IMG/VR virus record: IMGVR_UViG_3300014720_000002
Source of the DNA: a virus
Strand: one strand, 5' to 3'
DNA: 64,000 bases
In this document: positions 22,260 to 55,683 of the stretch, piece by piece
Layout of the letters: the number at the start of each line of letters is the position of its first letter
Numbering within the stretch: position 1 is the stretch's first letter
Notes under the pieces: model-generated
What the model saw: the letters and a program-made list of their open reading frames with translations, nothing else
Databases searched by the model: none
Told to the model about the DNA's origin: nothing
Made by a program: the position numbers and the translations under genes

Positions 22260-22350
22260 GGGAGACGTCCTCTCCCATTTAACCAGACAGTGAACGCGGC
22301 TTGTTGGCCGCAGCCCGCCCCGGACTTGATCGGTCTGGGGCGGGCCTTTT
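22260..22350 (+). ncRNA. Candidate ~90-nt three-hairpin small RNA ending in an intrinsic terminator
   Basis: GGGAGA-cgtcc-TCTCCC (22260-22276), GCGGC-ttgttg-GCCGC (22296-22311), 13-bp stem 22313-22345 followed by CTTTT; lies just after a class I promoter, and I see no convincing ORF here. Confidence 0.4.
22313..22350 (+). terminator. Rho-independent terminator
   Basis: GCCCGCCCCGGAC / GTCTGGGGCGGGC stem (one G-U pair) followed by CTTTT. Confidence 0.75.
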
Positions 22351-23530
22351 CATGTCCTGGCTGCAGGCCCGTCACCAGGGCCTGGTCCAACCGGGTTATC
22401 CGGAAGCGTGGGAGGCGCCGCCTGCATGGCGGCATCACTGCACATGGCAAAATCCCTGAACCTCGACAAGAAGAAGACCCAACGCATCCTGCCGGCGAGT
22501 GATCCGGTGGACTTCAGCAGCTTGTCGCCCGACGAGGCGATGATGTTGAAGGAGGAGTTGGCCATCGCTACCTCATCGGTGGACCCAAGACACCTGTGGT
22601 TCGCCGCCCAGGAGCAGTCCGGCCCACTGCCCCGTTCGGCGGTGGCACCCACAAAGGAAGGCGACCGCGCGCTGCGGTTGCAACTCTACATCGTCCGGCA
22701 CGGCGGCCAGGCGAAGCCGGTCGTCAAGGACACGGCGTTCGGCATGCTGACGGCCGCTTCGGCTGTGCTCGGGTTTAACCGGGCCTAAACCATCATCCTC
22801 CCGTGGGCTGCCAGCGACAGCCCACGGGAGGTATCCAACTGCTGCCGAATTTTATGCCCGATACTCCCGATGAACCAGTGCTGTGTCCGTTCTGCTGCGG
22901 GGACAAGCTTTTCGTGTGCGTTCAGTGGACCGCCGTAAGCGAACAAGATCCCCACCACAGCGAGGCACTGACCGAGCATCAATGTCGTGATTGTGCACGG
23001 TCGTTCTGGGTGTGACACACCTCATTCACGAGCACCCCTGCAGCCAAAAACGAGCAGGGTGGCGAAAACTTGAAAACCCCACCAAGGGCGCGGCTGCTCA
23101 AATTTAACCATGTCTGCATCACCGTTCACTGAAGAAGAGTTGCAGTTCATCTGCCAGGCTGGCTGGGCCTGCCTCATCAGCAGCCCAGGTGCCATGCCTA
23201 ACCCGATTGCCCGGTTGACGCCGGAGGCGCATACCGCGCTGGCACGCAAGCTGGAGTTGGCACTGGGCAAGGGCAAGCCAGGCGCGGTGCACCTGAAACC
23301 GGATGGCTGGTATTTCTGGGACGAGACAGGTGCGCATGCCCTGGGGCCGTTCGCCACCAGCGACGAGGCGGCGCACATGCTGAAGCGCTACGCTGACAGC
23401 CTTTGACACTTTACCCAGCGTGGCCGCCTATCACCGGCGCGCTGGGTCAACTAACAAACAGTGATGGCTGGCGAAGGAGTCTCCGCTGGACGGGCGAATG
23501 CCAAGCAGTGCTCCAAAACAAACAAACGGT

Positions 23531-24391
23531 ATGATGAAAGAGAACAAGATGGTGATCGCGGTCACGTTGACCGCACCCCTGCTGGGCGGGCTGCCCTTCA
23601 GCGACATTGCGCAGGACCACCTGCGCGTCAAGACGGAGAAGGAGAACAAGAAGGACCTCTCCAACCTGGAGCCTCGCGTCGCGGAGGAACTGGCCGTCGC
23701 TGCTGCCCAGGCCGAGCAGCGCCGGTTGCAACTCCTGGCCGCTGGGCTGGACGCCGAAGAGGCGCGCGGCACCACCGGGTTTGCCCGTGACGACATGGGC
23801 TTGTTCGTGTGGGACTATTGGTTCCGTGGCTTCATCAAGGAAGCCCTGGAGACGGTGATCGAGTGCGGCTGTGCACCCGCCGGCTTCAACCCCTGGAACC
23901 GCAAGAAGAAGGTCGATCAGTTGATCTTCGTGGAGCCGCGGCGCATCTATCTGCGCAAGCCGTCAGCGGAGCGCACGGCGTCATCGTCCACGGTCTGGAC
24001 CGAATCCCCCGGTTTCAACACCCGGCCGATCCGGACGGAGGATCAGCGCACTGGCGCCCAGCGCACGGCCATCGCGCGCAGCGAGGAAGTGCCGGAAGGC
24101 ACCTGGTTCGTGGCCGAGTTGGTGTATCTTGGGCCGGAGGAGGTCAAGGTCAGCAAGAGCGGCAAGTCGCAACCGATCGTGACCAAGGAGTTGATCGCAG
24201 ACATCCTCACCTACGGCCGCCGAAAGGGTCTCGGTCAGTGGCGGTCTGGTGGCTGGGGCACGTTCGACTGGCAGGAGTTGCCGGACAACAAGCTGGTGAT
24301 CAAGGCGTCCCGTGGTGTCGCCTCCGTGCCCAAGCAGGGCATCCACATCGAATGCACTCCCGGCTGTCCCCAGCCGGCCGTTGCGGTCTAG
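23531..24391 (+). CDS. Orphan Cas7-like RAMP protein (candidate Vipr-type guide-RNA-binding effector)
   Basis: RAMP architecture: N-terminal IAVTLTAPLLGG, GTTGFARD..GLFVWDYWFRGFIKEA, DQLIFVEPRRI, RPIR...RTAIARSEEVPEGTWF, and a C-terminal glycine-rich loop YGRRKGLGQWRSGGWGTF. A/C-rich leader AAAACAAACAAACGGT before ATG 23531. Confidence 0.85.
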   Translation: MMKENKMVIAVTLTAPLLGGLPFSDIAQDHLRVKTEKENKKDLSNLEPRVAEELAVAAAQAEQRRLQLLAAGLDAEEARGTTGFARDDMGLFVWDYWFRGFIKEALETVIECGCAPAGFNPWNRKKKVDQLIFVEPRRIYLRKPSAERTASSSTVWTESPGFNTRPIRTEDQRTGAQRTAIARSEEVPEGTWFVAELVYLGPEEVKVSKSGKSQPIVTKELIADILTYGRRKGLGQWRSGGWGTFDWQELPDNKLVIKASRGVASVPKQGIHIECTPGCPQPAVAV

Positions 24392-24407
24392 TTGTCGAGC
24401 ACAGCAC

Positions 24408-24442
24408 CCAGCCGGCCGGAGCATTTGCTTCCGGCCGGCTGG
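24408..24442 (+). terminator. Perfect 13-bp hairpin just downstream of the RAMP gene (terminator or processing site)
   Basis: CCAGCCGGCCGGA-gcatttgct-TCCGGCCGGCTGG; no U-tract follows. Confidence 0.5.
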
Positions 24443-34564: not shown

Positions 34565-37533
34565 AACTGACCGAAGCACAAGAGCGCTGGCTGGCCGCGC
34601 TGGAGAGCGAACAGTATGCGCAATACACCGGCGCTCTTTGTCGTGTGGATGATGATGACTCCCGCAGCTATTGCTGCCTGGGCGTGGCTGAGATGTCGCT
34701 CGGGACCGAGACGGCCGGCCCGGTGGTGAGTGACGGTAAAAGGGTCATGTCGTTCTTGTCGCGTGACGAGGACGGCGATGTGGAGGATTCGGCACGATGT
34801 GCTGTGTTGTCTGAGTCTGTGTGTCGGCTCGGGTTGAGGTCTCCGACAGGGGAGATAGCACGGGAACACAAGGACGCATTTGACGCCGCGTTGCTGCGCC
34901 ACAGTCCTGACCTGCCGTTCAAGGAGCTAAAGCTGGCGGGTTGCCTGGCCAGTCTAAACGACAAGGTAAGGCCTCCGTTCAAAACCATCGCAGCGGCCAT
35001 CCGTGAGGTTCCCGAAGCAGTGTTTGAAGTATGCTAAAACCAAGTTTGTTCTACACCCGGCAGCCGCACGACGCGGTGATGTCGTCGAATGAGGCCCAGG
35101 TAACGGCCAGGCTGTGCATGAAGTGGCTGATGGAGCAGGGCGATCGCTGGCAGAAGATTCCTCTGCTGTTGATCAACCGCTTTTACCAGGAGGCTGGCGG
35201 CGACCGTAAGCTGTCGATGGATGAGCGGAAGGAGTTTCGCCGCTGGTGCGCCAGTCCCTGGCGGGCCATGGCGTTCTCGCCGGTTTGGTTGAACCTTGGA
35301 CTGGACAAGCTGAGCGTCTTCTTCGCGGCAGCACAGCCAGACGAGCTTCAGGCGTTCCTGGAGTTCCGCCGGCAAGGACTGCATCTGGTCGAGGTGGCCG
35401 AATTGGCCCGGCTGGCGCTGGCGGACGGTGACATGTTCGACAGCGCGGCGGATCAGATGGACTTGTCTGACGCCTACATGAAGAAGGTGCAGACTGGTCT
35501 GCATTACTTCTGCGGTCCCGACCATGGACGCCCCTACCGTTAAGGAACTGCTGCCGGTCATCACGGCGTTTGCCAACCGGCAGCCGATTCAGTTCCGCGA
35601 GCGCAAGACGGATGGCCTGGCCAAGCCGGGCCAGTGGGTTGATGTGAATCCCGACACCACGCAGTTCAGGCTGACGGAGTATGATCTGCTGGTGAGGGAC
35701 TGGAGGGTTAAACCTCAATGAGCAGAAAGCGCAGTCCAGCGAATAAACGTCGGCCGCGTGAGCAGGCGTTCAAGGTGGTGTGGGAGCTAGACCTGGTTAT
35801 GGCGCGGACCCCGCGCGCCGCCGCCGAACAGGCGTTCAAGATCATCCAGGAGCCGGGCACGGAGTGCACGGTGTTCCAGGTGCGCGATCAGTCGGGCAAA
35901 GTGCACGACATCGATCTGTCGGTTGCGGAAGAAGATACAAGCAAATGAACAATCCGAACGAAGCAGAAAAATCTGGGGCCAAGATGCTGGCCGACATCCA
36001 GGTCTGGTTGAAGGCGACCGGGATCGATGCCGCGATGGCGCTTATCGATCTGGTCCGGCGCGGAGAGATCGGTTCGTCCACGGCGGTTGATCCTGAGCAT
36101 GGCACCGTGTTTTTGCTGGCCATGGCGCCAGCGAACCGGCTCGGCTCGCTGGCAGGCATGCCGACCGGGATCCCGGGTGACACCCTGATTCCGATGCCGG
36201 TGGCGCAGCTACTCACGGGCGAACAGGCGCAACAGGTTTCTCAGGCCGGTGCCTCTGGCCGCATGGTGCTCTTCGATGCCACCGCGGCTACCCGCCAGCC
36301 CGCGGCGAATGAGCCGCCTGCGCCGTTCAGCAGCGAGCAGACGCAGGACTGGCGTTACGAGGTGGCCAACGGTGACACTGTGCTGGGTCTTTCGGAGTGG
36401 TGTGCCCATCAGCGGGAGAGCCGTGTCGCAGACAACGCCCAGCCAACGAATGAGCAAACCAAGTCCGGACAGCCGTGAGCAGATGCAGGAGGTCATGGTC
36501 AGGATGCAGGTTTCCCTGACCGTGCCGGCTCGGCTGTCCACCGACGAAGTTCGCCGGCTGGTGCAGCGGGGGCTGAACGGAATGTTTCCGGCTTACCACC
36601 GCCACTACCACCGGACGCAGTTCGCCGAGGAGGCCGACATCTACCGTCCGGAGACGGCCCACACGCGCTGGCACGAGGTGTTCCAGGCGGCAGAAGCAGG
36701 CCAGGACTGTTCGCTTACCCTGACGGAGGCCCTGGAGGCCCTGCGTCGTCCGCTGTCGATTACGGCCGCAGAGTGGCCAGCCGGCACGTCTTTGACGGAT
36801 GCCTGCCGCAAGGTGGAGAATCAACGGCTGCAGATGTGGCAGCATGTCATGGACACGCTGGGCGAGGCGCTGCCGTCGGTCTGGGAAACCATGCCGGGTG
36901 AGGCGGCGCGCTGCGTGTTTGTGGGCACCATGCAAGAGGTCAAGGAGTTCCTGGCAGGGCTTACTCCCCGAGAGGGAGCAAAGTTGGAGATCAGGCACAA
37001 AGGGACAGCGTAACATGAGCAAACCAACAGTCAGGTCGGTGAAGATGTGGGCGCCGGTTATCTGGAACGGCAAGAAGCGCGAGCCGGACTTCTCCACGCT
37101 CAGCCGCCGGCGCAAGGACGCCGAGCAGGTCAGCAATTATCCGCCGGTCCAGGTGGTGGTGCAGTGGGACGGCAAGATCGGCGGCTCCAGCTTCGTCACC
37201 CGGGTGATCTGGGTGCATCAGGTCGAGCTTGCCTTTGCCGGCGGCGAGAAGTTCCTGGGTATTGAGGCGGTGTGTCGCGGGCCGGTTGACCTGGGTCGCG
37301 GGGTCGCGGGGTCAAGGGGCTGATGGTGCGCAGTCCCATTACCGGCCAGGAGTATGTGGTCGAGGCTTCGGCGGGCGGCCTCGTCGGCACTTCTGTGGCT
37401 GTCATCAAGGCGGCTCTGGCGGGATGCAGCCGGGCTGAGGTCAAGGCGCAGCTTGCCAAAGGCCGGGAGCAGTTGCAGCGGGTCAGCCTGGCCGGCACGC
37501 CGGAGTTTTGGTGGGCGGTGGAGAAGATCGTTG

Positions 37534-37955
37534 GGTGATGGCGAGGCAGCGGCAGGTTCTGTTGCTCATTGGTAAGGTCCGTTAATGTCCGGCGCTGTGG
37601 AGTAAAGTGACGGTGAGGCTGGGCTGGGTCACGCATGGTGTTGGTATCGTCCCGATAGGTTACGTTCAGCAAGGTAGCGTGAAGGTGCAGCGCCGGTATG
37701 TCGGCGCCTGGTTTGATCTGGTCTTGCGCAGGTGGTGATCCGTAGCGTCAGGTGAAGTTTCGTCCGGGTGTGGCTCGTCAATGTCGCGCACTGTTCAGCG
37801 AAGGCACTGTGGATCTGGGCCTCGTTCTGTGGCGGTGTTGTGTTGTCCCGTGAGGTTTCGTATTGGTGCGGTAATGCACGCCTCGGCGCAGTGCCGGCAG
37901 GCTACGGTTAGGCCGGGCAATACAAGGCAACGCTTAGCAAAGGTTCAGCAACGCA
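37534..37955 (+). repeat. Degenerate NGY-NN pentamer array A (candidate VIPR-like guide RNA array)
   Basis: 81 pentamers from 37540, 69 exactly NGY. Units of 31,41,31,41,11,36,36,36,31,31,31,46 nt each start with GGY. Fills the gap from a stop codon (37536-38) to the next ATG (37956). Confidence 0.85.
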
Positions 37956-40900
37956 ATGAGCATATTCAATCCCAACGCACTCCCAGACCGGTCACCGATG
38001 GCCGCCATCCGGCCTGAGCACTGGCCGGAAACGCTGGCCGAGTTGTCCTGCCATGACGTGGTCGTGAACTCGGTGCTGCAGGCCAGCGGCCCGCATTATG
38101 CAAACCTGTCGGAGCAGGAATCACTGCGGCTGATGGTGGTGCTGATGGCGCAGCGGCATCAGCATGTGCTGGCGGAAGCCATAACGCAGGAATTCAAACG
38201 TGCTCCGCAGCCAATCGTGCTACCCCACAAACGAGATGATCAGAAAGTTCGGTGAAGGACTCAGCACCCGGCGCGAGACGCACGAGGAACTGGGCGGCGG
38301 CTACGGACCAGACAAGCACAAACCGCTGGTGGCGGAGTTCATCGCCAACGACCAGGTGCAGATCTGGCCCAAGCGTTCCAGCCGCAAAGTGCAGATCGGC
38401 CTGCTGGATCTCTACGCCATTATCGTGCGCAAGAACGCCAACCTGGCCACCCTGGAGAAGGCGCGGGATCGGAAAGCTAAAAAGGAGAGCCAGCGAAAGG
38501 CGCGGCAGATTGCCGCCGCGGATCGACGGCTGCGCAAGGCGGCCAAAACAAACCTATGTTGAGTGAACAAGAGCGGCTGTGCTACCGGTCGCTGAAGGAA
38601 GGCGAAATCATCCAGCATGGTGATTTGGAGCTTGGTGGCGGTGAGCACGACCACTGGACGCCCGTCCTTCATCGGATCGGAAGCCCAGCCCCAGCGCCGG
38701 AATATCCGGCCCACAGCAAGTTCCTGCGACGCATCCTGTGCGCCTGGAAAGCCGACGATGACGGTGTCCTGCATGCCGCCTGCGGACAGGCGTATTGCTT
38801 CGAGCACGAGTTCACCGTTGGTGGTGCCTACCAGTTCTGCCCAGGATGTGGAAAACCCATTCGCCTATGCCCACCAACCTTGATCCCGGAAAGCGAGAGT
38901 TGAAGCGCACCCAGCGCACCAAGCCATGCCACGACTGCCCGTTTGCCAAGCACACGGCACCTGGTGCGTTGGGCGGTTCCACCCCTGAGGTGTATATGGG
39001 GCAGATCCAGGGTCCGTTCTGGCTGCCCTGTCACAACAGCAGCGGCTACGAGGAAAGCCGACGCGACCCGGGACATGAGCAGTGCGCGGGTGCTGCCATC
39101 TTCCGGGCTAATACGGGGCTGGAGCAGTTGATGCCTTCGGCCTTGCTGCATCTGCCTGCGGATGACAGCCAGGTGTTCCGAGGACCGGTGGAGTTCCTGC
39201 AGCACCATCTGGGCTTTACGCCGGAGCAGGTGCTGGCCTGGTTTCGCGCCAACCCGCCACAGAAGCTGCTGCAGGACGAGCTTGCCAAACAGGAAGCACA
39301 GGTGATGTTGCTGCCCAAGAAACCATGAGCGACCTCAAAACCTACGGCAAAGGCACCCGGGTCATGTGCGACCACCATTTCAGCGGCAAGCCGCGCGGCG
39401 TGGTGGTGGCCGTGCTGGAGCCTGGGCGGGGTAGCAGTGCCACGGAAGGCCGGATTCAGGTTCGGCTGACTGAGACGGTTGGGCCTTGGAAGAAAGGCGA
39501 GCTTCGGGAACTGCCGGCCTGGCTGGCGGTGCCACTGGCTCAGCTTCGTCCGCCGCGCGCTGGCGAGTTTTTCACCCGCGTCCTCACCGACTATCAATGG
39601 GCATGAAACAACTGAGCGACCTACAGCCGGAGCCATCCGTGGTGGATGCCAAGGTGGATGAGGTGCTCATGCCTGGCCAACTGAGCCAGGCGGAAGTGAA
39701 GCAGGCCGCCGACAAGGCGGGTCGTGACAAGCTGCGCGTCCAGGGTGCGGCGATACGGATGATTTTCAGTGGCCTTGGTCCGACGAACGACTGGTTTTCT
39801 CATTATGACTGACCGAAAGTTTTACTACCGGGAGTTTCTCATCCGGGTTGTCTCACCTGAGCCGGTGGATTCCATTGATGCGCTGCAGCGGGTGCTGAAC
39901 GATGAGCAGATGGGTGTCTGGTGCTCGCGCGAGCCTCAGCCCGCCCGTATGCTGGACGGCAAACAGACGGCTGACGAATTGAAGCAGATGGGGGCCACGC
40001 CACCGCTCTTCGACCTCGACGACGCCGGCAACGATCTCGATCCGGACGAGTGAACACCATTTTCGATGTTTATCGCCATGGCGCCAACCTCGGTTGGTCG
40101 GCTGACCAGGTGGTGACGGAGGTGCAGCGGCGGTTTAAGGCTGGCACCAAGCTGGGCGCCAACCATCTGCGCAAGCAGTATGCCGACACGGTGATGATGG
40201 ACCGGATCCAACTGCTGGCCATGTGCAAGGACCTGCGGGCCGTGTTGCACAGCTTCAGCCCGGACGGTCGTCCGCATGTGCCGTCGCTGGAAGATCCAGC
40301 CTGGCCGATGGTGCCGGCGGCGCTGCAGTCCAGCGCGGAACTGATTCAGAAACTAACCCCGACCGAAAATGAGTGATCCGATTGAGCATGCCGTGGCCGG
40401 ACTGTTACAGAAGGCCATCGACGAAGGCACCAAGGAAGCGACCCATGCTGCGGTGGAGATGATGTCGGCGGCCTGTGGTTACCTGCTGCCCCGGGTTTCT
40501 TCCGTGGACGTGAACTTGAAGAACGGGCATGCGCGCATCGAGTTTCATTCTCCATGGCGGTCGCTCAACCGCAAGCCGTTGCCGAAGACGCAGCAGCGGG
40601 TGGCTTTACTGAAGGTGCGGCTTGCCCTGACCAGGTATTTCCGGCTGTTCCCACAGTCTGCCGTGCCTCCGATCTCGGTGGTCAACTGCCCGACCTGTAT
40701 CGGCCGAGCGCCCATCAAATGTGCGGAAATGGCCTGGCAGGAGTGGCGTCAGCGGTGCACCAAGGTGGTGCAGGACGCCATCGACCAGAAGGGCTGGGTG
40801 GCTGGCTCGCTGGATGTGGACAAGGCCCATGGGCGGCGGGTGGAGATTCACGGCTATCTGATCGACGCCAAGACCGCCAAGCCGGTGAGCGCCGTCGAAT

Positions 40901-45973: not shown

Positions 45974-48373
45974 CTGCATGAACTACATCTCGGACGGGAC
46001 AGTGATCGATCAGCGCACCTACGACGGGCTGTGTGACATCTTCAACCGGGTGGCGAGCCATCTGCTGAAGCAGGCCCGGCGAGCCGTTGCGCACTCGGCC
46101 ACGGGCGGGATGGGCTGCCGCTATCGGTTGTGCGACGGACGGGCCTGCGCGGTCGGTTGTCTCATCACCGATCAGAATTATCATGACGGGCTGGAGCGCA
46201 AGAATTCCGATGACCCGCTGGTTGTTTCCGCCGTGACGGCCAGCCTCGGCCGGTCGCTCACCAAGCATGAGCAGCAGTTGCTGGAAGCGCTGCAGCATGT
46301 GCATGACATCGACCTGGCGACCTGGGGCGATGATTCCGGCATCCCAGCTTGGTCGATCGTGGCGTCGCTGAACCGGGTGGCGCACCGGTTTGACCTGCCT
46401 GGACTACCGAAACCCAAAGACGCACCAGCCGGCGTATGAGCACTCCGAGACTGGAAATTCGGCAGCTTGGTCTGACGCACGTCACCCAAAGCTGCCCGTG
46501 GGGCCTCTACAGCCGTCACGGGCATCGACTGCTGTGCTCGGACGGACAGGTGCGCGCCGCCACTCTCGCCTCTACCCCGGACACGTTCTTCAGCGTGCCG
46601 GCGTCGGTGCGGGTGAAGGGCAAGACTGTCTCGGGCTACATGACGGTTGAGGAGGCTGGTGGCGGCAAGCTGCGTGCCTACGTGTTCCGCCATCATACGG
46701 CTCACCGGGACAAGCTGCCGGCCTGGCCTGACCGGTTCACTCCGGAGCATGAGAGGCTGGTGAACAGTGTGATTACGCATGATCAATCAAAAGGAACTGA
46801 CCGCGCTGGTCGCTGAGGGGGCGACGCTGCTGGCGGTGTATCGGTTGCGGGAGGATGGCGATGGCGATTTCATCGCCTTGTTCGACATCGAGAACTGCGC
46901 GGAGCGGTTCGCCGACAATACCGGCGACGGTGCGGCTGTGTTGGCTGCCGTTGTTCAGGCCGGCCTTGCGGACGACGGCGAGGAAGCCGTGTGGGTCTGC
47001 TTCCAACGGATGGCTGATGTGGTGGACATTCTGGAGGGAGCCCAGGAACGGTGGGAAGCTCAACGTGAAAAGCCGCACAACCCCGTGCCGTGAATGTCCC
47101 TGGCGCCGAGCTTCGGCGCCAGGATGGCTGGGTAGCGAGCAGACGCCGGAGGAGTGGGTGAAGACAGCGCATGGTGAGGTGACCGTGGAATGCCACACGG
47201 AAGCGCCCAAGCTGTGTGCTGGCATCGCCATTTACCGCACCAACGTCGCCAAGAAACTTCGCAACGCCAGCGTGCCCATCCTGTCCGGCGATAAGTCTAA
47301 GGTGTTTGCTACGCCGGCGGAGTTCATCCAACACCACCGGTCTGGTGTGGTCAGCAGTGAGATCAAAACATGAGCAAACTTGATGCAGCGGTCGAAGAAG
47401 TGCAGCGCGCTTTGGAAGGGTTCACCGAGGACTGCTTGACCAATCATCCGGAACAACGGGTGGAACTGGAGGCGGCCTGGTTGCTTATCCGGCGTCGGCT
47501 GTTGCGCCTTCCCTCAGATGGGTTGCGATGTGGGGAGCGGTTGTATCTGGATGGCAATCTGCATGCGGTCTGCACTCAGCCAGGAGGGGTTGAGCACACG
47601 CATCACGATCTGGACGCTCAGCAGGCCATCGCGGCAGGGCTGGCCCGTCCGGCCTCGGACACAGATCGGCCGCATGCGCCAAGTGAGGTGCAGAACCAGC
47701 AGGTGGCTGAGTGGCCTTGGCAGGATGCCGGGGTGCATCCATTCTCTCCGCATGAACTTGGCCTGAGGGATAGCGAGGGCGCGCAAGACTGGATCAGCAA
47801 TGATGAGTTGGTAGGGTTGTCGGAGGCCCGCCCTGGCGGCATCATCGGCTACATTCATCGACTGCACGCCGACCGGATTGCCGGTCTTTTGAACCTGGCC
47901 GGGATGGTGGTTGAGAACGAACATGATTAACATGGTGGAACACATTCGGGCAGACCGGCGGTTGACTGCCCAGGCCAAGGTCAGTCAATTCTCTTGATCT
48001 ACATGACCACCGAGGAACTCTTCGACGCGGTGGCGCCCATCGCCATCTACCACTGCACGGACGTGCGGTTCCAGCAGCGGGCCAAGGTTGGCCTGCGCAA
48101 GCTGAAGGCTGCCGGAGTGCAGCTTCCGGACGAACCGCTGGATGATTTGGCTGACTGGGCCAAGGACGAGCACGACCGGCTGTTCATTGAGATCGTCAGC
48201 GATCTCGCCCCGGAGTGGACCTGGGATTACGACCGCTGGGGTGCCAAGGCATGGAAAGATGAACGCGGCGCGCTGGTGTTCGCCGGTGACGCGCACGATC
48301 AGTTTCCTTGGTATGAGACGGCGGCTCTGCTGAAGGAGCGGGTGCTGGAGCATCAACTGGAGGGAGCGACGGC

Positions 48374-49030
48374 GTGAACGACGAGCAACTGATCAGTTTG
48401 ATGGACAAGGTCGCGGAGGATCACGCCAGCCGAGGGCAGACCTACGCCGGCGGACCCTATCGCAAGCACCTGGAGGATGTGGAGCGCCTGCTGAGGACCG
48501 CCTGTAACGTCGCCTGGGTGGAAGAGGAGTCGGTCGGCGCTTTGCTTGCCGCCGGCATCCTGCACGACTGGTTCGAGGACTGCTTTGACGGGTCGCACAA
48601 GTTCTCACACTGGCGCCTGACCGGAACGCTGATTGACTGGCAGGGTGAGTTTGGCGTGCCAGCCGTCAGCCTGATGATGGCGCTGCGCTGCTCCGATCCG
48701 CCCGGCATGTCGCGACGTGAGGCCAAACGGGCTATCTTGCCGGTTATCGTGGCCTGCGAAGGTGCCCGGGCAGTCAAGCTGGCTGATCGGATGGCGAATC
48801 TGGAGCAGAGCATTGCTGACCGCAATCGAAAGCATCTGGAACGCTACATTGAAGAGGCTAGGCAGTTAGCGCCGGTGGCGGACCAGCTTGAGACTCCGGT
48901 TGATGCAGTGCAGGAGACTCGACACTACGCCCCGGTGCGAGACTACTTGGCTGGTTGCTATGCGGATGTCCTGGCTCGGGCCGCCGAGAGTTTTCATACT
49001 CTGCGCGGCCCGACCAATGCGGTGAAGTGA
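48374..49030 (+). CDS. RelA/SpoT-type HD-domain (p)ppGpp hydrolase-like protein (small alarmone hydrolase-like)
   Basis: H..GQTYAGGPYRKHL..V...AAGILHDWFEDC...EFG...RAVKLADRMANL. Confidence 0.78.
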   Translation: MNDEQLISLMDKVAEDHASRGQTYAGGPYRKHLEDVERLLRTACNVAWVEEESVGALLAAGILHDWFEDCFDGSHKFSHWRLTGTLIDWQGEFGVPAVSLMMALRCSDPPGMSRREAKRAILPVIVACEGARAVKLADRMANLEQSIADRNRKHLERYIEEARQLAPVADQLETPVDAVQETRHYAPVRDYLAGCYADVLARAAESFHTLRGPTNAVK

Positions 49031-49376
49031 CGGTATTGGAACGCTTAGCCGCGTGCCGCCATGCCTAGCACAGGCTACGTGCGGTCCGGTCAGGTCTCGT
49101 AATGGTAAAGTGACGCAAAGTCGGGCTTCGTCGAGCGATGGCCGGGTGTGGTCAAGCAGGGTGTGGTGGTTCAAAGTTAAGGTGTCGCGTCGCCTAGTCA
49201 GGTCACGCGCCGGCAATGGATGGTGCCGTCCGGTTTAGCAGCGCAGCGGCATAGTGACGAAAAGGCCTGTAACGTGAAGCACAGGTAAGGTGCCGTGAGG
49301 CATGGTGAGGTCTGGCACAGGTAAAGCAGAGTCACGCGGGGTCCGGTTCAGGCGAGGATAGGTGGAGTCACGCAGC
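49021..49376 (+). repeat. Degenerate NGY-NN pentamer array B (candidate VIPR-like guide RNA array)
   Basis: 69 pentamers, 68 with central G, 63 exactly NGY. Units of 11,41,31,36,41,31,36,36,36,31,26 nt, all starting with GGY. Ends directly at ATG 49377. Confidence 0.9.
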
Positions 49377-50708
49377 ATGCAGATTCGATTGAAAGAACGC
49401 TGGCAGGCGTGGGTGGAGGTGTGGACCGCCATCCGCGCCTGCCATGCCGGCAGGAACGAGAAGCTGGAGGTGCGGCGCACCGGACAGGTCTGGGACGTCG
49501 GTGCCAGACAGTATCGCGAGCGGCTGGAGTTCCGGGCCGCCGACAACCCCGGCTGGGAAGGCTACAACCGCTCCCGGAACCTGCTGGCGACGAAGGTGCC
49601 GCGCCTGTCCAAGGCGCTGGAAAAGTTGAAGTGGATATGAGCAAGAAGACGATGACCCTGGTGGTCGAGATCGAGTATGATGGGTTGGAAGGACCGTTCC
49701 GACCTGCCCTGGTGAACAAGCTCAAGGACCGGCTGCACGCCATGGTTGAGCGCGAGGCTGGCGAGGGCGGGCTGTCGCCGGACGATGGCAGTGTGGCCGT
49801 GGCAAGCTGGGACGCCCGGGTGGCTGATGGGCCGCTCACGCTGCTGAACCCGGCGCAGGTGCGCGATCTCAGCAAGCTGCTGGATTACACTGAGGCGGAT
49901 GAAGAGCGACACTACGAGGAGAGCAAACCCTGCCGCAACCACATCTGGCATTCGATTCGCCGGCTGAGGAAAGCTACACCCGAACCATGAACCTTTACTC
50001 ATTCGGAGCCGCGGCCAGGGAAGGCGCCTGCCGAGCAACCTGGGACCCTAAGCACAGCAACTTCGTGATGCACATCTGGCAGAAGGGTAAGCCGACGCCC
50101 ATCGCCACCTGCCGGGATACCACGCAGGAGAAGTGCGAGGCGGCGGCGCGGCAGGTCAAGGAGGCGCTGGAGCTTCAGGCGCGGCTGGAGTCGCCGGAGT
50201 TCAGCGCCGCGCTTAGGCTTGCCCTGGAGGGCACGCTGACTACCCGGCTGCGTTCGGTGCACGGGCTGGACCCGTTCTCACGGAAGCGCACCAAGCGCGC
50301 GGCTGAGTTGGAAGTCGAGTTCTTGGTTGGCGCCATGAGCGCCATCAACGCGACGTTTCCTGGGCGTGACTCCGAACTCAGCAGCAAGGTGCCGGTTTAT
50401 TGGCCCATGTGCCTTATGAGTGGGCGCTCGGTGCTGCAGTCCGCGAAGAAGTCATGAAGCCACTATATTACTACGTCCTCATCGACAGTGAAACCTTGGC
50501 GCGGTTGCAAGCACGGGTTGCCACCAGGTTCCGATTCCACGGGCGCATCCAGGTATTTCGGATCGAGCGCAACCAGGTGATCAAGGCAGAGAGTCTCTGC
50601 ATCCAGTGCCCAGACCAGTTGTCCGCTGAAGTGCGGGATGATCTGCTCAGCTTTGTGGCTGGTTTCGTTGAGGGGGCCGACCTGCAGTCATCGACCGCCC
50701 ACCTGGGT

Positions 50709-52312: not shown

Positions 52313-53404
52313 ACTATGAGTAAGTCGGAGAAGCTGAGAAAATTGGCCAACGCCGTTCGGCGTTACCGCGGCCTGCTTGGATCGCCTGGGCATGACGGCG
52401 TGGTCCGGTGGAAGCAGCCACCCATACCTTCAGCCAAGGACGATGTCCGGCGCTGGCTGGGCAGGCTGGGCCTGGATGTGGAAGCGCATCTGCGGCGTGT
52501 GGACGAGTTTCCTTCGCTGCAGCAGTTCGCGGAATGGCTGGAAGAGTTGGAGAATGGCAATGAGCACGTTGTGGCAGGAACTTCGGAAGTGGGAAAATCA
52601 TGAAAAGAAACTGGCTGATCAGGCATTACCAGGCGGCGCTGGTGTTCGCGAGCCGGACCCGCAATCGCCCCCTGTCCGACTACGTTCGACAGGAGTTGAA
52701 AAGGTGGTCGGCGGCACCGTCCTCTGGAAGCCGGTCGATCGCCTAGCGGCTAAGATGCTGGCCAAGTCGCCCTGGTGGGCGCAGCCAGTGCATGTGCCGA
52801 CACCGCCACCAGCGGCGCCGGCTGCAGTTGAGAAGGCAAAAAAGAAGAGAACACACAAGATTATGGGAGACAACGCTGTCATTGTGGAGACAGGAGACAA
52901 GCGTGCGCCACAGGATGTCCGTCCGCGGATGAACGACGCGAGCTACACGAGCGCATGCGGGCTGGAGGTGCACCGGATCAACGGGCAGGACATGATTTCG
53001 CTGGAGAGTGCGCAGACTGTCCTCTGTGCCGAGATTGCGAAAATGCCCAAGGAGACGCGACCGCTGGTTTTGGCCGCCCAGGACGCCCGACGGATCGTTA
53101 ATGAGTTGACGGACGGCATTGGCGCCGATCAGGAAAAGTTCAGGGTCAGTGCCAAGATGTTCCTGGAGGATGTCCGCCAGACCCGGTTTGCGGTGGTGCA
53201 GGAGGCCAGCGCAATGATGACGCCATTGCGCGATGTCCGCACTTTCTTCCTGGGGCCGGATTACAAGGAGCAGGTGACCAGGTTGAAGGAGTTCGTGGAA
53301 CTTTGCGAGCGGCTGCAGAAGCTCAAGGAGTCGGGTTTCCTGGATAACGTCGCGGACACCATGCTGCGACTGGCAGATCGGCCAGCCACCGGCGCCTGAT
53401 TGAA

Positions 53405-53486
53405 TGCGCTGTGGTGCTTGGAAAGGTCTCGTGCGGTCGCGTTAAGTCACGGTCCAGTGAGGGCGTGGCAAAGTCCTGCGCGGAAC
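53405..53486 (+). repeat. Short NGY-NN pentamer array D
   Basis: 16 pentamers, all with central G, 14 NGY; two 6-nt phase steps at 53451 and 53462, each followed by GGY. Starts 6 nt after the stop at 53399. Confidence 0.7.
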
Positions 53487-53529
53487 CGCACCAGTTGGGC
53501 TTCGGCCCGCTGGTGCGGTTTCCTTTAGC
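53484..53529 (+). terminator. Nested hairpin (11-bp outer stem plus GGGC-UUCG-GCCC) followed by CCTTTAGC; closes array D
   Basis: AACCGCACCAG / CTGGTGCGGTT is a perfect stem. Confidence 0.7.
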
Positions 53530-53540
53530 CATCCACTCCC

Positions 53541-53568
53541 GCAACCAAGCACGCCGCTGTGTCATAAG
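53541..53568 (+). promoter_or_regulatory. Class I promoter GCAAC-N18-ATAAG
   Basis: Exact spacing; lies upstream of the MYG1-like gene. Confidence 0.7.
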
Positions 53569-53647
53569 CCTTTGGACAGGACTGTTTCTTGTCTGGGAGC
53601 ATCCGGCCTCCAACCATTTAAGCAACTGCCGGAAGGAGAACTGTAAC

Positions 53648-54730
53648 ATGTCAAAGATCAAAGAGGCGGCGATCCTCAAAATCGTCACTCATCCCGGCCG
53701 GGCGCACCGGGATGAGTTTCTGGCCATCGCCATCGTGCTGGCCAGCCTGCCCGCCGCGCAGATGCGGCAGGTCGCCATCGAACGCCGTCAACCCAAGCGC
53801 GAGGACACCCTGGATAAGGGCGTGCTGGTGCTGGACATCGGCGGCGGTGAATTCGACCACCACCAACTGTCCCCAGAGGCGCCGGCGACCTGTGCGCTCA
53901 CCCTGGTGCTCAAGGACCTCGGGCTGCTGGAGCAGGCGCGCGAGGTCTGGTCGTGGCTGGAGTTTGTCGAGGTCATGGACAGCAAGGGACCGGGGGCGGT
54001 CGCCTCGCGCGCCGGCGTGCCCTGGGACAAGCTCTCCGGGCTGACCATGAATCCGGTCGAGATGTGGGCGCTCCATTGGTTCGCCAACAACCCGGACAAC
54101 ATGAAGGACGTGCTCAACGGCGTCGGTGCCCGGTTGTTGTCCGAGCTTGCGGACTACCGGTCGGCCCTGACCCTCCTGGACGCGCACGCCCATGTGGTGT
54201 TCGTGCGCGGGGTGGCGTTGCTCGACCTCACATTCACGAGCGACACGACCGCCGTCAACAAGTGGCGCATGCAGCACTGCCCTCACGCCAAGGGCAGCAT
54301 CATGAAGGACGACCGCGGCGGGGGCTACACGCTCTACGCCTGGCAGATGGGCGGCGGGTCCGGCTGGCTGGACTTCCGCCGGCTGGCGCATCCCGGCATC
54401 ACCTTCATCCACAATGGAGGGTTCCTGGCCAAGACGCGGATGACGGTGACGTTCCGTGAGGTTCTGGATCTGCTGACACAGGCGCTGCCGTCGGAGCCGG
54501 TCTGCCTCGGCAGCATGGTGGGCAATGGGTTCTCGGTGCAGGGAAGCTGGCAGCCGGCGCCGACAGATGACGGATCGCATTTCGTCATGGTGACGATCGG
54601 GACGGCCAAGCACGGGTGTGTGGAAGGTATGCTCTGCTTCCGCACGGAGGCGGCGCTGCGCTCGGCCATGAGCCATGTGCGCAACCGCATTGAGATCAGC
54701 CTGTCGAAGGGGGAGGTGGCCCATGCTTGA
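53648..54730 (+). CDS. MYG1-family (UPF0160) metal-dependent nuclease-like protein
   Basis: IVTHPGRAHRDEFLA...VLDIGGGEFDHHQ...DSKGP...FIHNGGFLAKT. Confidence 0.85.
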   Translation: MSKIKEAAILKIVTHPGRAHRDEFLAIAIVLASLPAAQMRQVAIERRQPKREDTLDKGVLVLDIGGGEFDHHQLSPEAPATCALTLVLKDLGLLEQAREVWSWLEFVEVMDSKGPGAVASRAGVPWDKLSGLTMNPVEMWALHWFANNPDNMKDVLNGVGARLLSELADYRSALTLLDAHAHVVFVRGVALLDLTFTSDTTAVNKWRMQHCPHAKGSIMKDDRGGGYTLYAWQMGGGSGWLDFRRLAHPGITFIHNGGFLAKTRMTVTFREVLDLLTQALPSEPVCLGSMVGNGFSVQGSWQPAPTDDGSHFVMVTIGTAKHGCVEGMLCFRTEAALRSAMSHVRNRIEISLSKGEVAHA

Positions 54731-55208
54731 AGTGCGCATGCACTGGCGCCGAGGTCATCTGCACACAGTGAAGTTCGGCAAGGGTCGGGAGAGTTCCCGG
54801 CTGGACTGGTTCGAGCCGATATTGGTCAATGCGCCGGAAGGAAAGGAGGTGAACGTATGAGCGAAAAGAGTGAGCAAGTGCTGCGGGACGCCATCGAAAA
54901 ACATGTTGGCGCACTACTTCACGCAGAGTTGCAACGGGACGAACTGCATGTCTATCTGTCCTGGGACAAAGCTAGTGGAAAAGTCACGGTTAATTGCTTC
55001 TCGACCTTGGCGCTGAACCTTCTCGATCGATCGCATAAGACCACCGTCGGCGGCTTGGACGAGTTGATCGACAGCGTGTTGGAGGGCTGCGACCGAAAGC
55101 AGGCCAAGGTTTGTCTGGACCAGATACAGGCAAGCTTGGACAAGGCTCGTGCTGGCTGGCAGAAAGTATGCGCTGAGTGGGATCGGGAACATCGACCTGC
55201 GAATCGCA

Positions 55209-55593
55209 GGTAAAGCAAAGGTGAGGCGAGGTGTAGCATCGTTGCGTGCGGTTCAGGTGTAGTGCCGTGAAGATGGGTAATGTAAAGCGCCGGCGAGGTG
55301 ATGCTTGGTGTGGTGGCATCGCGTTTGGAACAGTATTGGAGACGCGGCGCACAGCATGGTAGCGCAATGTGGTGGCGTCGTATCGAGGCGCTGAGTATTG
55401 GCCTGGCACGGCGGCGGTGGGCACCGTAAAGCTACGGCATGGTCACGTCAGGTTCAGTGCAGCACAGGTAACGCGACGCAAGGTTCGGTTTCGTGCTGTC
55501 ACGTATCGGTTTGGGTGGGTCGAGCGCTGGGCTGTCAGGCAAAGGCGAGGCGGGGTCTGGTCCGGTTTCGTTACGTCGTGCGCTGTGCCGACG
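55209..55593 (+). repeat. Degenerate NGY-NN pentamer array C (candidate VIPR-like guide RNA array)
   Basis: 75 pentamers, 74 with central G, 66 NGY. Units of 11,36,36,46,36,26,36,31,41,36 nt plus a final ~50-nt unit. The upstream TAA (55211-13) is embedded in the first pentamer. Confidence 0.9.
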
Positions 55594-55639
55594 AACACCA
55601 GTTGGGGCGCAAGCCCTGGCTGGTGTTCGTCCTTTAGCT
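55591..55639 (+). terminator. Nested hairpin (11-bp outer stem plus GGGC-GCAA-GCCC) followed by CCTTTAGCT; closes array C
   Basis: ACGAACACCAG / CTGGTGTTCGT is a perfect stem; same architecture as 53484. Confidence 0.7.
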
Positions 55640-55644
55640 ATCAG

Positions 55645-55683
55645 TTGAAACTCCCGCCGGATTGCGGCACGCTCCGCCTGATG
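55645..55683 (+). promoter_or_regulatory. Class II leaderless-type promoter TTGAAA-N17-CACGCT-N7-ATG
   Basis: Spacing identical to 62252-62290. Confidence 0.6.

What the first reader, a model, noticed from the sequence alone, without database searches (positions are those of the whole stretch)
23403..24442. The RAMP gene is a self-contained cassette with no adjacent array
Seen: an upstream inverted repeat ACCCAGCG...CGCTGGGT (23413-23447), an A/C-rich leader, a downstream perfect 13-bp hairpin, and a roughly 35-aa tail after the G-rich loop. The neighbours are unrelated small ORFs. Inference: the effector acts in trans on guides made from other operons, so neighbourhood-based searches would miss the link to the arrays.
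Basis: partly seen in the sequence, partly recalled or inferred. Interest (0 to 1): 0.7.

Follow-up and report, generated by a model that had tools for sequence, protein, structure and literature searches.

The report
Vipr gene detached from guide arrays
This phage gene encodes the Cas7-like protein of the recently described CRISPR-like VIPR system, but unlike nearly all of its relatives it stands alone, 13 to 31 kb from the guide-RNA arrays it most likely serves.

Summary
The ORF at 23528-24391 (+) folds as a Cas7-type RAMP (pLDDT 87.5; best match type VII Cas7, Z 11.9). An 8-bp inverted repeat lies upstream and a perfect 13-bp hairpin downstream. The leader before the ATG is A/C-rich. About 35 residues follow the last strand after the G-rich loop. 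No five-base guide array lies within 13 kb.

The comparison with relatives is new. In 77 of 80 viral contigs (38 of 40 clusters at 70% identity), a co-oriented array lies within 1 kb of the homologous gene, with a median gap of 38 nt. In this record the only arrays start 13.1, 24.6, 28.9 and 30.7 kb downstream. Among six related large phages, arrays occur in the three that carry this protein family, and in none convincingly of the three that carry only a second mini-RAMP. No cas genes or CRISPR repeats were found.

The gene is therefore most likely the Vipr effector of a VIPR system whose guides are made at separate loci. One correction: the upstream repeat is better read as the 3' hairpin of the preceding gene.

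Loading of Vipr in trans is already published for "solo" guides, so this is a new layout and not a new mechanism. Other reports of this scan already described this genome's arrays, and a distant guide unit in another genome.

The parts
23413..23447 (+). Inverted repeat / stem-loop 6 nt after the stop codon of ORF 23110-23406. It is best read as that gene's 3' hairpin, which also insulates vipr from upstream read-through.
   Evidence: dG -23.2, z -4.15. The same kind of hairpin follows the three neighbouring genes, at 22313-22345, 22797-22831 and 24408-24442.
23448..23527 (+). 80-nt leader with two A/C-rich tracts (23448-23460, 23511-23527) and no Shine-Dalgarno-like motif. It may act as an S1-type translation enhancer (inference).
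   Evidence: 80% A+C in the 20 nt before the ATG, against 0.50 +/- 0.11 for other genes. A/C-only runs are rare in the genome.
23528..24391 (+). vipr gene: a 287-aa Cas7-like RAMP (alternative starts 23531 and 23498). It is the only member of its family in the record.
24011..24091 (+). Long beta-hairpin (residues 162-188) at the RAMP thumb position. It carries the family-invariant R166 and the near-invariant R169 and R179.
   Evidence: Secondary structure of model m227ab3234c12; conservation in A1.
24227..24265 (+). Glycine-rich loop, G-L-G-Q-W-R-S-G-G-W-G-T-F (residues 234-246). It aligns with the G-D-W-R loop of SUSP1 Vipr.
   Evidence: residue roles from 10.64898/2026.04.26.720927.
24284..24388 (+). 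C-terminal tail of about 35 residues. It is predicted disordered and lineage-specific.
24408..24442 (+). Perfect 13-bp GC-rich hairpin 16 nt after the stop codon: the probable 3' end or terminator of the vipr transcript. No T-run follows it.
   Evidence: The related phage G001 has an analogous hairpin between vipr and its array.
37516..37981 (+). Guide array A (period-5 G-Y runs), 13.1 kb downstream of vipr.
48961..49437 (+). Guide array B, 24.6 kb downstream.
53334..53557 (+). Short array C' (weaker signal), 28.9 kb downstream. It ends in a terminator-like hairpin at 53484-53520.
55114..55666 (+). Guide array D, 30.7 kb downstream. It ends in a hairpin (55590-55631) related to the one that ends C'.

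Best explanation
The ORF is the Vipr effector of a phage VIPR system (a Cas7-like protein plus vrRNAs built from five-base repeats) in an unusual, dispersed layout.

The gene sits between two strong stem-loops, the 3' hairpin of the gene before it and its own. Whether it has its own promoter is unknown. It is translated from an A/C-rich leader without a Shine-Dalgarno motif.

The protein then diffuses and polymerises, one protomer per pentamer, on vrRNAs transcribed from three to four separate arrays 13-31 kb downstream. The resulting filaments bind matching DNA and silence it. The likely targets are competing mobile elements, as published for VIPR.

Shown here:
- the RAMP fold and the G-loop;
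- near-universal adjacency of gene and array in the protein family;
- the absence of any array near this gene;
- arrays of the family's own grammar elsewhere in the same record;
- co-occurrence of arrays with this family among related phages;
- the hairpins.

Inferred:
- assembly of protein and RNA in trans;
- termination or mRNA stabilisation at the hairpins;
- an enhancer role for the leader;
- DNA silencing.
For: Fold. The AF2 model has pLDDT 87.5 and pTM 0.83. Foldseek finds type VII Cas7 and Csm3 at E 1e-8 to 1e-6. In VIA-align the top 22 rows are all CRISPR RAMP subunits or effectors, mostly Cas7-type: 8yhd_A Z 11.9 (138 residues aligned, rmsd 2.8), 9g9a_D Z 10.9, 6ae2_B Z 10.5.

Family. 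800 cluster representatives match at E <= 1e-3. The profile hits Csm4 and Cas7, and weakly hits SUSP1 Vipr 36pp_D (E 0.13). hhalign against the SUSP1 vipr ORF gives E 7e-5 over the G-loop.

Adjacency norm. 77 of 80 IMG/VR loci have a co-oriented period-5 array within 1 kb: 65 downstream and 12 upstream, median gap 38 nt. The background is 6 hits in 874 kb. This amounts to 38 of 40 clusters at 70% identity. In the closest relatives the array starts at the stop codon.

Own record. Arrays occur only at window 37.5, 49.0, 53.3 and 55.1 kb. There is one family member only.

Grammar. The own arrays (225 units) have Y at +1 in 78% of units and no second G. The relatives' arrays are the same. This fits a family G-loop of Q-W-R: it keeps the Trp and Arg that read G2 and Y3 in SUSP1, and lacks the Asp that reads G1.

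Related large phages. G001 and G002 have the family gene with an array 177 nt and about 0.6-1 kb away. G003 to G005 have only the mini-RAMP, and show no array (G004, G005) or one weak hit (G003). None of 12 mini-RAMP loci has a co-oriented array within 6 kb.

Precedent. Loading of Vipr with vrRNAs in trans is experimentally documented for solo vrRNAs (10.64898/2026.10.15.759431).
Against: - There is no expression, RNA or binding data for this phage.
- The link to published Vipr proteins by sequence is weak and confined to the G-loop. The SUSP1 Vipr structure was not in the fold libraries.
- The layout in the closest relatives (82% identical, on contigs up to 197 kb) could not be fetched, so it is unknown whether the detachment is conserved.
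- No promoter-like motif is shared between the vipr leader and the DNA upstream of the arrays.
- The downstream hairpin has no T-run, so termination there is not assured.
- No vap-like accessory gene was recognised.
- The six-phage co-occurrence sample is small (3 against 3).
Confidence: 0.8

Rival explanations
1. The gene is a guide-less RAMP, or one with an unknown partner. The distant arrays are 'solo' vrRNAs that borrow or decoy the Vipr of co-infecting phages, with no functional tie to this protein.
For: Three of the four arrays lie more than 20 kb from the gene, which is the published operational definition of 'solo'. No shared regulatory motif was found.
Against: The arrays have exactly the single-G + Y staggered grammar found next to this protein family in 78 relatives. 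The published solo vrRNAs sit in Vipr-null genomes, whereas this genome has an intact, conserved Vipr. Among related large phages, arrays appear only where the family gene is present.
Confidence: 0.07
2. The arrays are served by the second, 140-aa mini-RAMP near the end of the record (L083:6474-6893), alone or as a Cas5-like cap together with this protein, in the manner of a conventional multi-RAMP effector.
For: It is a distant RAMP with its own G-loop (hhalign to A1, E 1e-4), and it sits in the same genome.
Against: None of 12 relatives of the mini-RAMP has a co-oriented array within 6 kb. Three complete related phages carry it without the A1-family gene and without convincing arrays. It lies in the replication module next to a helicase-like ORF.
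Confidence: 0.04
3. The gene does have its own guide: a single short or atypical vrRNA hidden in its leader or trailer. Single-vrRNA systems exist.
For: The preprint mentions systems with a single vrRNA. The 80-nt leader holds a run of four G-at-period-5 units (read).
Against: Four units is what chance gives in 33%-G DNA. Detector density within 1 kb is 0.0. The gaps are only 80 and 68 nt, and hairpins fill much of them.
Confidence: 0.04
4. The gene is a recently acquired or decaying moron, and the hairpins mark a mobile cassette. Its presence in the same genome as the arrays is coincidental.
For: It lies in a 55-kb hypervariable accessory region in which it is the only gene shared with the related phage G001, and its relative position differs there.
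Against: - All family-invariant residues are intact, and an 82%-identical homologue exists in other samples.
- GC and GC3 are typical of the phage.
- No flanking direct repeats or mobility genes were seen.
- Such hairpins punctuate many genes: 55 perfect stems of 9 bp or more in the genome, against 13-22 in shuffles.
Confidence: 0.05

Closest known systems
VIPR systems with staggered vrRNA arrays and YNNNG/NNNNG-type repeats (bioRxiv 10.64898/2026.04.26.720920, text and legend of fig. S18)
   Same: A phage-encoded single Cas7-like RAMP with a G-loop and thumb. Non-coding arrays of five-base units with a fixed G(Y) and variable remainder. A +1 register shift between successive units. No cas genes and no CRISPR repeats.
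   Different: [quoted passage not shown] Here the gene has no array within 13 kb, and the arrays sit at three to four separate places among unrelated genes. No vap gene was recognised. The protein has an extra N-terminal helix and a C-terminal tail of about 35 residues.
SUSP1 VIPR, type II (Vipr + vap1 + four vrRNAs; PDB 36pp; bioRxiv 10.64898/2026.04.26.720927)
   Same: The G-loop aligns (hhalign E 7e-5). The Trp and Arg that hold G2 and Y3 are conserved. The same one-protomer-per-pentamer logic is expected.
   Different: - Sequence similarity is confined to the G-loop.
- SUSP1 has Asp where this family has Gln, and reads GGY-NN, whereas these arrays are GY-NNN.
- SUSP1 vrRNAs flank vipr-vap1 directly (L002).
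- SUSP1 Vipr ends 3 residues after the aligned G-loop region.
Solo (orphan) vrRNAs of satellites and Vipr-null phages (bioRxiv 10.64898/2026.10.15.759431)
   Same: vrRNA genes placed far from any vipr gene and loaded by a Vipr made elsewhere. This shows that trans assembly works.
   Different: Those vrRNAs sit in genomes that lack vipr and borrow the protein of another element. Here protein and guides are in one genome but at separate loci. By that paper's 20-kb rule, three of the four arrays would be scored 'solo' although the genome is Vipr-positive.
Cas7 backbone subunits of class 1 CRISPR effectors (type VII Cas7, Csm3, Cmr4, Csf2)
   Same: The same fold: an RRM core, a thumb hairpin and a C-terminal glycine-rich loop (Z 9-12).
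   Different: There are no partner subunits (Cas5, Cas6, Cas8/10, Cas11), no adaptation genes and no repeat-spacer array. The Pfam RAMPs model does not detect the protein.

Membership tests
Vipr protein / VIPR system | RAMP fold with an RRM core, a thumb and a glycine-rich loop | tested here: met
   Model pLDDT 87.5. Foldseek and VIA-align place Cas7-type RAMPs on top, with Z up to 11.9. The G-loop is at residues 234-246 and a long beta-hairpin at 162-188.
Vipr protein / VIPR system | Sequence relationship to published Vipr proteins (PSI-BLAST family seeded on X1U2U4; SUSP1 Vipr) | tested here: inconclusive
   The A1 profile against PDB 36pp_D gives E 0.13. hhalign of A1 against the SUSP1 vipr ORF gives E 7e-5 and probability 63%, over 37 columns at the G-loop only. 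The PSI-BLAST set itself was not available.
Vipr protein / VIPR system | Non-CRISPR context: no cas partners and no CRISPR repeats | tested here: met
   Pfam RAMPs, Cas1, Cas5d and Cas6 find nothing in the record, with positive controls ringing. There are no CRISPR-like repeats. The record is 86% complete.
Vipr protein / VIPR system | Five-base tandem-repeat vrRNA region next to the vipr gene | tested here: not met
   For this gene, nothing lies within 13 kb. For the protein family the feature is met in 77 of 80 loci. Arrays of the same grammar exist 13-31 kb away in this record. The feature therefore fails only as 'adjacent', not as 'present in the genome'.
Vipr protein / VIPR system | Accessory vap gene in an operon with vipr | tested here: inconclusive
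   The flanking ORFs have no Pfam match, and only PHROGs of unknown function. The 158-aa downstream ORF is DUF8296-like and unlike SUSP1 vap1. No conserved neighbour was found across relatives.
Vipr protein / VIPR system | Protein-vrRNA filament that binds DNA by a gapped code | not testable with these tools
   This needs RNA sequencing, pull-down and binding assays.
CRISPR-Cas class 1 effector (Cas7 subunit) | Works with Cas5/Cas6/large subunit on crRNA from a repeat-spacer array | tested here: not met
   No such genes or arrays are in the record. The only other RAMP is a 140-aa protein whose relatives occur without arrays.

The most novel reading that the evidence does not exclude
The split layout is functional and not accidental. 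With vipr as its own hairpin-bounded unit and guide arrays embedded in several different operons, the phage could set protein dose independently and change its guide repertoire as infection proceeds. The lineage-specific C-terminal tail and extra helix would then help a free pool of protomers load onto, or be recruited to, dispersed transcripts or a partner such as the phage's own RNA polymerase.
Probability: 0.12. Interest if true: 0.7.

Novelty: new variant of a known kind. Interest (0 to 1): 0.47.

Why it matters
VIPR systems were catalogued by looking 10 kb to either side of vipr, and guide genes are called 'solo' when no vipr lies within 20 kb. This phage shows that one genome can hold an intact vipr and several arrays that fall outside both limits. 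Such surveys can therefore under-count guides of Vipr-positive phages and over-count orphan guides.

The relatives also give a graded series:
1. the array starts at the stop codon;
2. a hairpin and 177 nt separate gene and array;
3. a homing-endonuclease gene is inserted between them;
4. 13-31 kb separate them.

This series suggests how guide genes become free-standing. The family-wide pairing of a Q-W-R G-loop with single-G 'GYNNN' arrays, against D-W-R with GGY-NN in SUSP1, gives a directly testable hypothesis for how the repeat grammar is read.

Tried and rejected
- Pfam, PHROGs and NCBIfam on the protein gave nothing. PADLOC gave only Cmr6 at E 0.034.
- Searches for close relatives with the protein itself found nothing in viral contigs or metagenome contigs. 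Searches with two flanking genes gave one distant locus or none. Synteny in close kin is therefore untested.
The narrower A2 worked.
- The sigma-70 promoter scan found nothing near the gene. No k-mer is shared between the vipr leader and the DNA upstream of the arrays beyond chance 8-mers.
- Strict GY x12 and Fourier period-5 scans failed because the arrays shift register every 5-9 units. Run-based detectors replaced them.
- The search for a vap gene failed: no neighbour family is conserved across relatives, apart from artefact ORFs inside arrays. Only one neighbour ORF, a zinc-ribbon protein in L003, has a homologue in this genome.
- The 218-aa ORF just before array B was checked as a possible second Vipr. 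It is not one: it has an HD-like motif and no G-loop.
- The SUSP1 Vipr structure (36pp) is in the sequence copy of the PDB but did not appear in the fold libraries, so no direct structural superposition was made.
Full report
**What is there.**
The window is part of a 167,647-bp IMG/VR virus record, 86% complete and about 61% GC. The finding covers one + strand ORF and its two flanks.

The ORF can start at ATG 23498, 23528/23531 or 23549. Homologues begin at the position of 23528/23531, and a JGI record of this same protein starts at 23531. I use 23528-24391, 287 aa.

Upstream, ACCCAGCG (23413-23420) pairs with CGCTGGGT (23440-23447), with extra pairs inside the loop (-23.2 kcal/mol, z -4.15). 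Downstream, a perfect 13-bp stem (24408-24420 / 24430-24442, loop 9) folds at -41.7 kcal/mol (z -5.7).

The 20 nt before the ATG are 80% A+C, the highest value among 82 rough gene calls (mean 0.50, sd 0.11). No Shine-Dalgarno-like motif precedes any candidate start.

**The protein is a Cas7-type RAMP.**
Curated libraries give nothing except a PADLOC Cmr6 hint at E 0.034. An exhaustive HMMER search finds 800 cluster representatives at E <= 1e-3. Most are 200-240 aa and end at query residues about 257-262.

An AlphaFold2 model built on 64 of them is confident (pLDDT 87.5, pTM 0.83). Only the last ~35 residues are poorly predicted.
- Foldseek puts type VII Cas7 and Csm3 on top (E 1e-8 to 1e-6).
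- An independent all-against-all alignment puts CRISPR RAMP proteins, mostly Cas7-type, in the top 22 rows. The best are 8yhd_A Z 11.9 (138 aligned, rmsd 2.8), 9g9a_D Z 10.9 and 6ae2_B Z 10.5.
- The family profile hits Csm4 and Cas7 G-loops in the PDB sequence set, and weakly hits SUSP1 Vipr (36pp_D, E 0.13).
- hhalign against the SUSP1 vipr ORF aligns the G-loop at E 7e-5.

**What the family normally looks like.**
VIPR systems are a phage Cas7-like Vipr protein plus vrRNAs made of five-base repeats. They were described in 2026 preprints, which I read after earlier notes of this scan pointed to them.

I fetched 80 IMG/VR loci encoding homologues of 27-40% identity, with up to 10 kb of flank on each side. 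I scanned them with a run-based detector of G at every fifth base. Strict scans fail because the arrays shift register by +1 every few units.
- 77 of 80 loci have a co-oriented array within 1 kb of the gene: 65 downstream and 12 upstream. The median gap is 38 nt and the largest 735 nt.
- The background is 6 hits in 874 kb of distant flank on the same strand, and none on the other.
- The 80 loci form 40 clusters at 70% identity, of which 38 show adjacency.
- Of the three exceptions, one has its array at about 0.6-1.0 kb and two have truncated flanks.
- In the closest relatives (L003, L005) the array starts at the stop codon and ends in a terminator-like hairpin.

This both ties the family to VIPR and defines the norm.

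**What is different here.**
With the same settings, the whole record has arrays only at these window positions, all on the + strand:

| Array | Window position | Signal |
|---|---|---|
| A | about 37.5 kb | clear |
| B | about 49.0 kb | clear |
| C' | about 53.3 kb | weaker |
| D | about 55.1 kb | clear |

Detector density within 1 kb of the gene is 0.0, and nothing passes within 13 kb. The gaps beside the gene are 80 and 68 nt and are largely filled by the hairpins. The arrays start 13.1, 24.6, 28.9 and 30.7 kb after the stop codon.

Their grammar is a single fixed G followed by a pyrimidine in 78% of 225 units. There is no enrichment of a second G. SUSP1 arrays, run as a control, show the published GG. 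Arrays next to the 78 relatives have the same single-G + Y grammar.

**Which protein serves the arrays.**
The record holds only one gene of this family (profile search at E <= 10). It also holds a 140-aa mini-RAMP near its end, distantly related (hhalign E 1e-4).

I built that protein's family and fetched 12 loci. None has a co-oriented array within 6 kb. These loci gave handles on five complete related large phages, which I read in full:

| Phage | This Vipr family | Arrays |
|---|---|---|
| G001 (204 kb) | present | one 1.2-kb array, 177 nt downstream; nothing else |
| G002 (197 kb) | present | about 0.6-1.2 kb downstream, after an HNH endonuclease gene on the other strand |
| G003 | absent (mini-RAMP only) | one weak hit |
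| G004 | absent (mini-RAMP only) | none |
| G005 | absent (mini-RAMP only) | none |

Arrays thus go with this family (3 of 3, counting this phage) and not with the mini-RAMP alone (0-1 of 3). The sample is small. Pfam models for RAMPs, Cas1, Cas5d and Cas6 find nothing in the record, and there are no CRISPR-like repeats.

**The 'cassette'.**
Perfect stems of 9 bp or more are three to four times commoner in this genome than in shuffles (55 against 13-22). Four consecutive genes around the finding each carry one shortly after the stop codon: 22313, 22797, 23413 and 24408.

The upstream inverted repeat starts 6 nt after the stop of ORF 23110-23406, so it is better read as that gene's 3' hairpin. 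The two hairpins do bracket vipr alone, so a monocistronic, insulated unit is plausible. Nothing suggests a mobile cassette.

In G001 a comparable hairpin (-31.5 kcal/mol, z -5.2) already lies between vipr and its array. In this phage lineage, protein and guides were therefore probably separate transcription units before they drifted apart.

Compared with G001, the structural and replication modules are collinear. In window 7.3-62 kb, however, vipr is the only gene with a G001 homologue, and its position relative to the RNA-polymerase pieces differs. The gene and the arrays therefore sit in a hypervariable accessory region, where insertions could easily have separated them.

**Tail and other protein features.**
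41 residues follow the G-loop Phe, against a family median of 12; 9 of 115 representatives have 40 or more. Only the 82%-identical P0001 shares this tail. Its first ~12 residues are conserved and the rest is not. The model gives the tail low confidence. G001's homologue also has a short tail. The function is unknown.

The cryo-EM preprint assigns G1 of GGY to His17 and Asp177, G2 to Arg138 and Trp178, and Y3 to Arg179 among others. By the hhalign register, Asp-Trp-Arg aligns with Gln237-Trp238-Arg239 here, all three near-invariant in the family. Keeping the G2 and Y3 readers while losing the G1 reader fits a GY-NNN grammar. This is an inference from one alignment and needs testing.

**How it most likely works.**
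- The gene is expressed on its own.
- The protein polymerises, one protomer per pentamer, on transcripts of the distant arrays.
- The filaments silence matching DNA.

Trans loading is not exotic. Satellite-encoded solo vrRNAs redirect SUSP1 Vipr experimentally (10.64898/2026.10.15.759431). What is new is a Vipr-positive genome in which every array is detached.

The published 20-kb discovery window would contain none of these arrays. The published 20-kb 'solo' rule would mislabel three of the four.

**Limits.**
- There are no RNA or protein data.
- Close relatives could not be fetched.
- No vap gene was recognised.
- No shared promoter motif was found.
- Other follow-ups of this scan have already described this genome's arrays as VIPR arrays, and a distant guide unit in another genome.

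Noticed in passing
window 38556-38903 (+): A 115-aa zinc-ribbon ORF about 0.6 kb after array A is the only gene in this genome with a homologue among the neighbours of vipr in the 80 relatives (L003:9347-9535, directly upstream of vipr there; E about 1e-6). Its ATG is preceded by CCAAAACAAAC, the same 11-mer that precedes the vipr ATG, although here the 11-mer overlaps the end of the previous ORF.
   Followed up: partly
L051:10390-10930 (-) = G002: An HNH homing-endonuclease gene sits between vipr and its arrays in a related 197-kb phage. The two arrays there each begin with the same ~30-nt leader (L051:10980 and 11322).
   Followed up: partly
window 53484-53533 and 55590-55645: Arrays C' and D end in related terminator-like hairpins (shared ACCAGTTGGG ... 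CTGGTG stem) followed by TCCTTTAGC. This suggests the array ends were duplicated.
   Followed up: partly
window 22313-24442: Four consecutive small genes each carry a strong stem-loop a few to about 80 nt after the stop codon (22313-22345, 22797-22831, 23413-23447, 24408-24442). Only the first is followed by a T-run.
   Followed up: partly
window 7300-62000: About 55 kb of small + strand ORFs between the RNA-polymerase pieces has almost no homologue in the related phages G001 and G002 (vipr, and in G002 also 47994-48377). It is a hypervariable accessory region that holds both vipr and all the arrays.
   Followed up: partly
window 48374-49030 (+): The 218-aa ORF whose stop codon abuts array B has an HD-like motif (LHDWFED) but no Pfam match.
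   Followed up: partly
genome, window coordinates about 128800-129900 (beyond the window): Coding tandem repeats with a 36-nt period (12-residue units), the only long exact repeats in the record. They are probably a collagen-like or fibre protein.
   Followed up: no
window 53411-54730 (+): A 439-aa ORF next to array C' has a weak MYG1-exonuclease (UPF0160) match at E 6e-6. The first ~150 nt of this ORF call overlap the region scored as array C', so one of the two calls needs checking.
   Followed up: no
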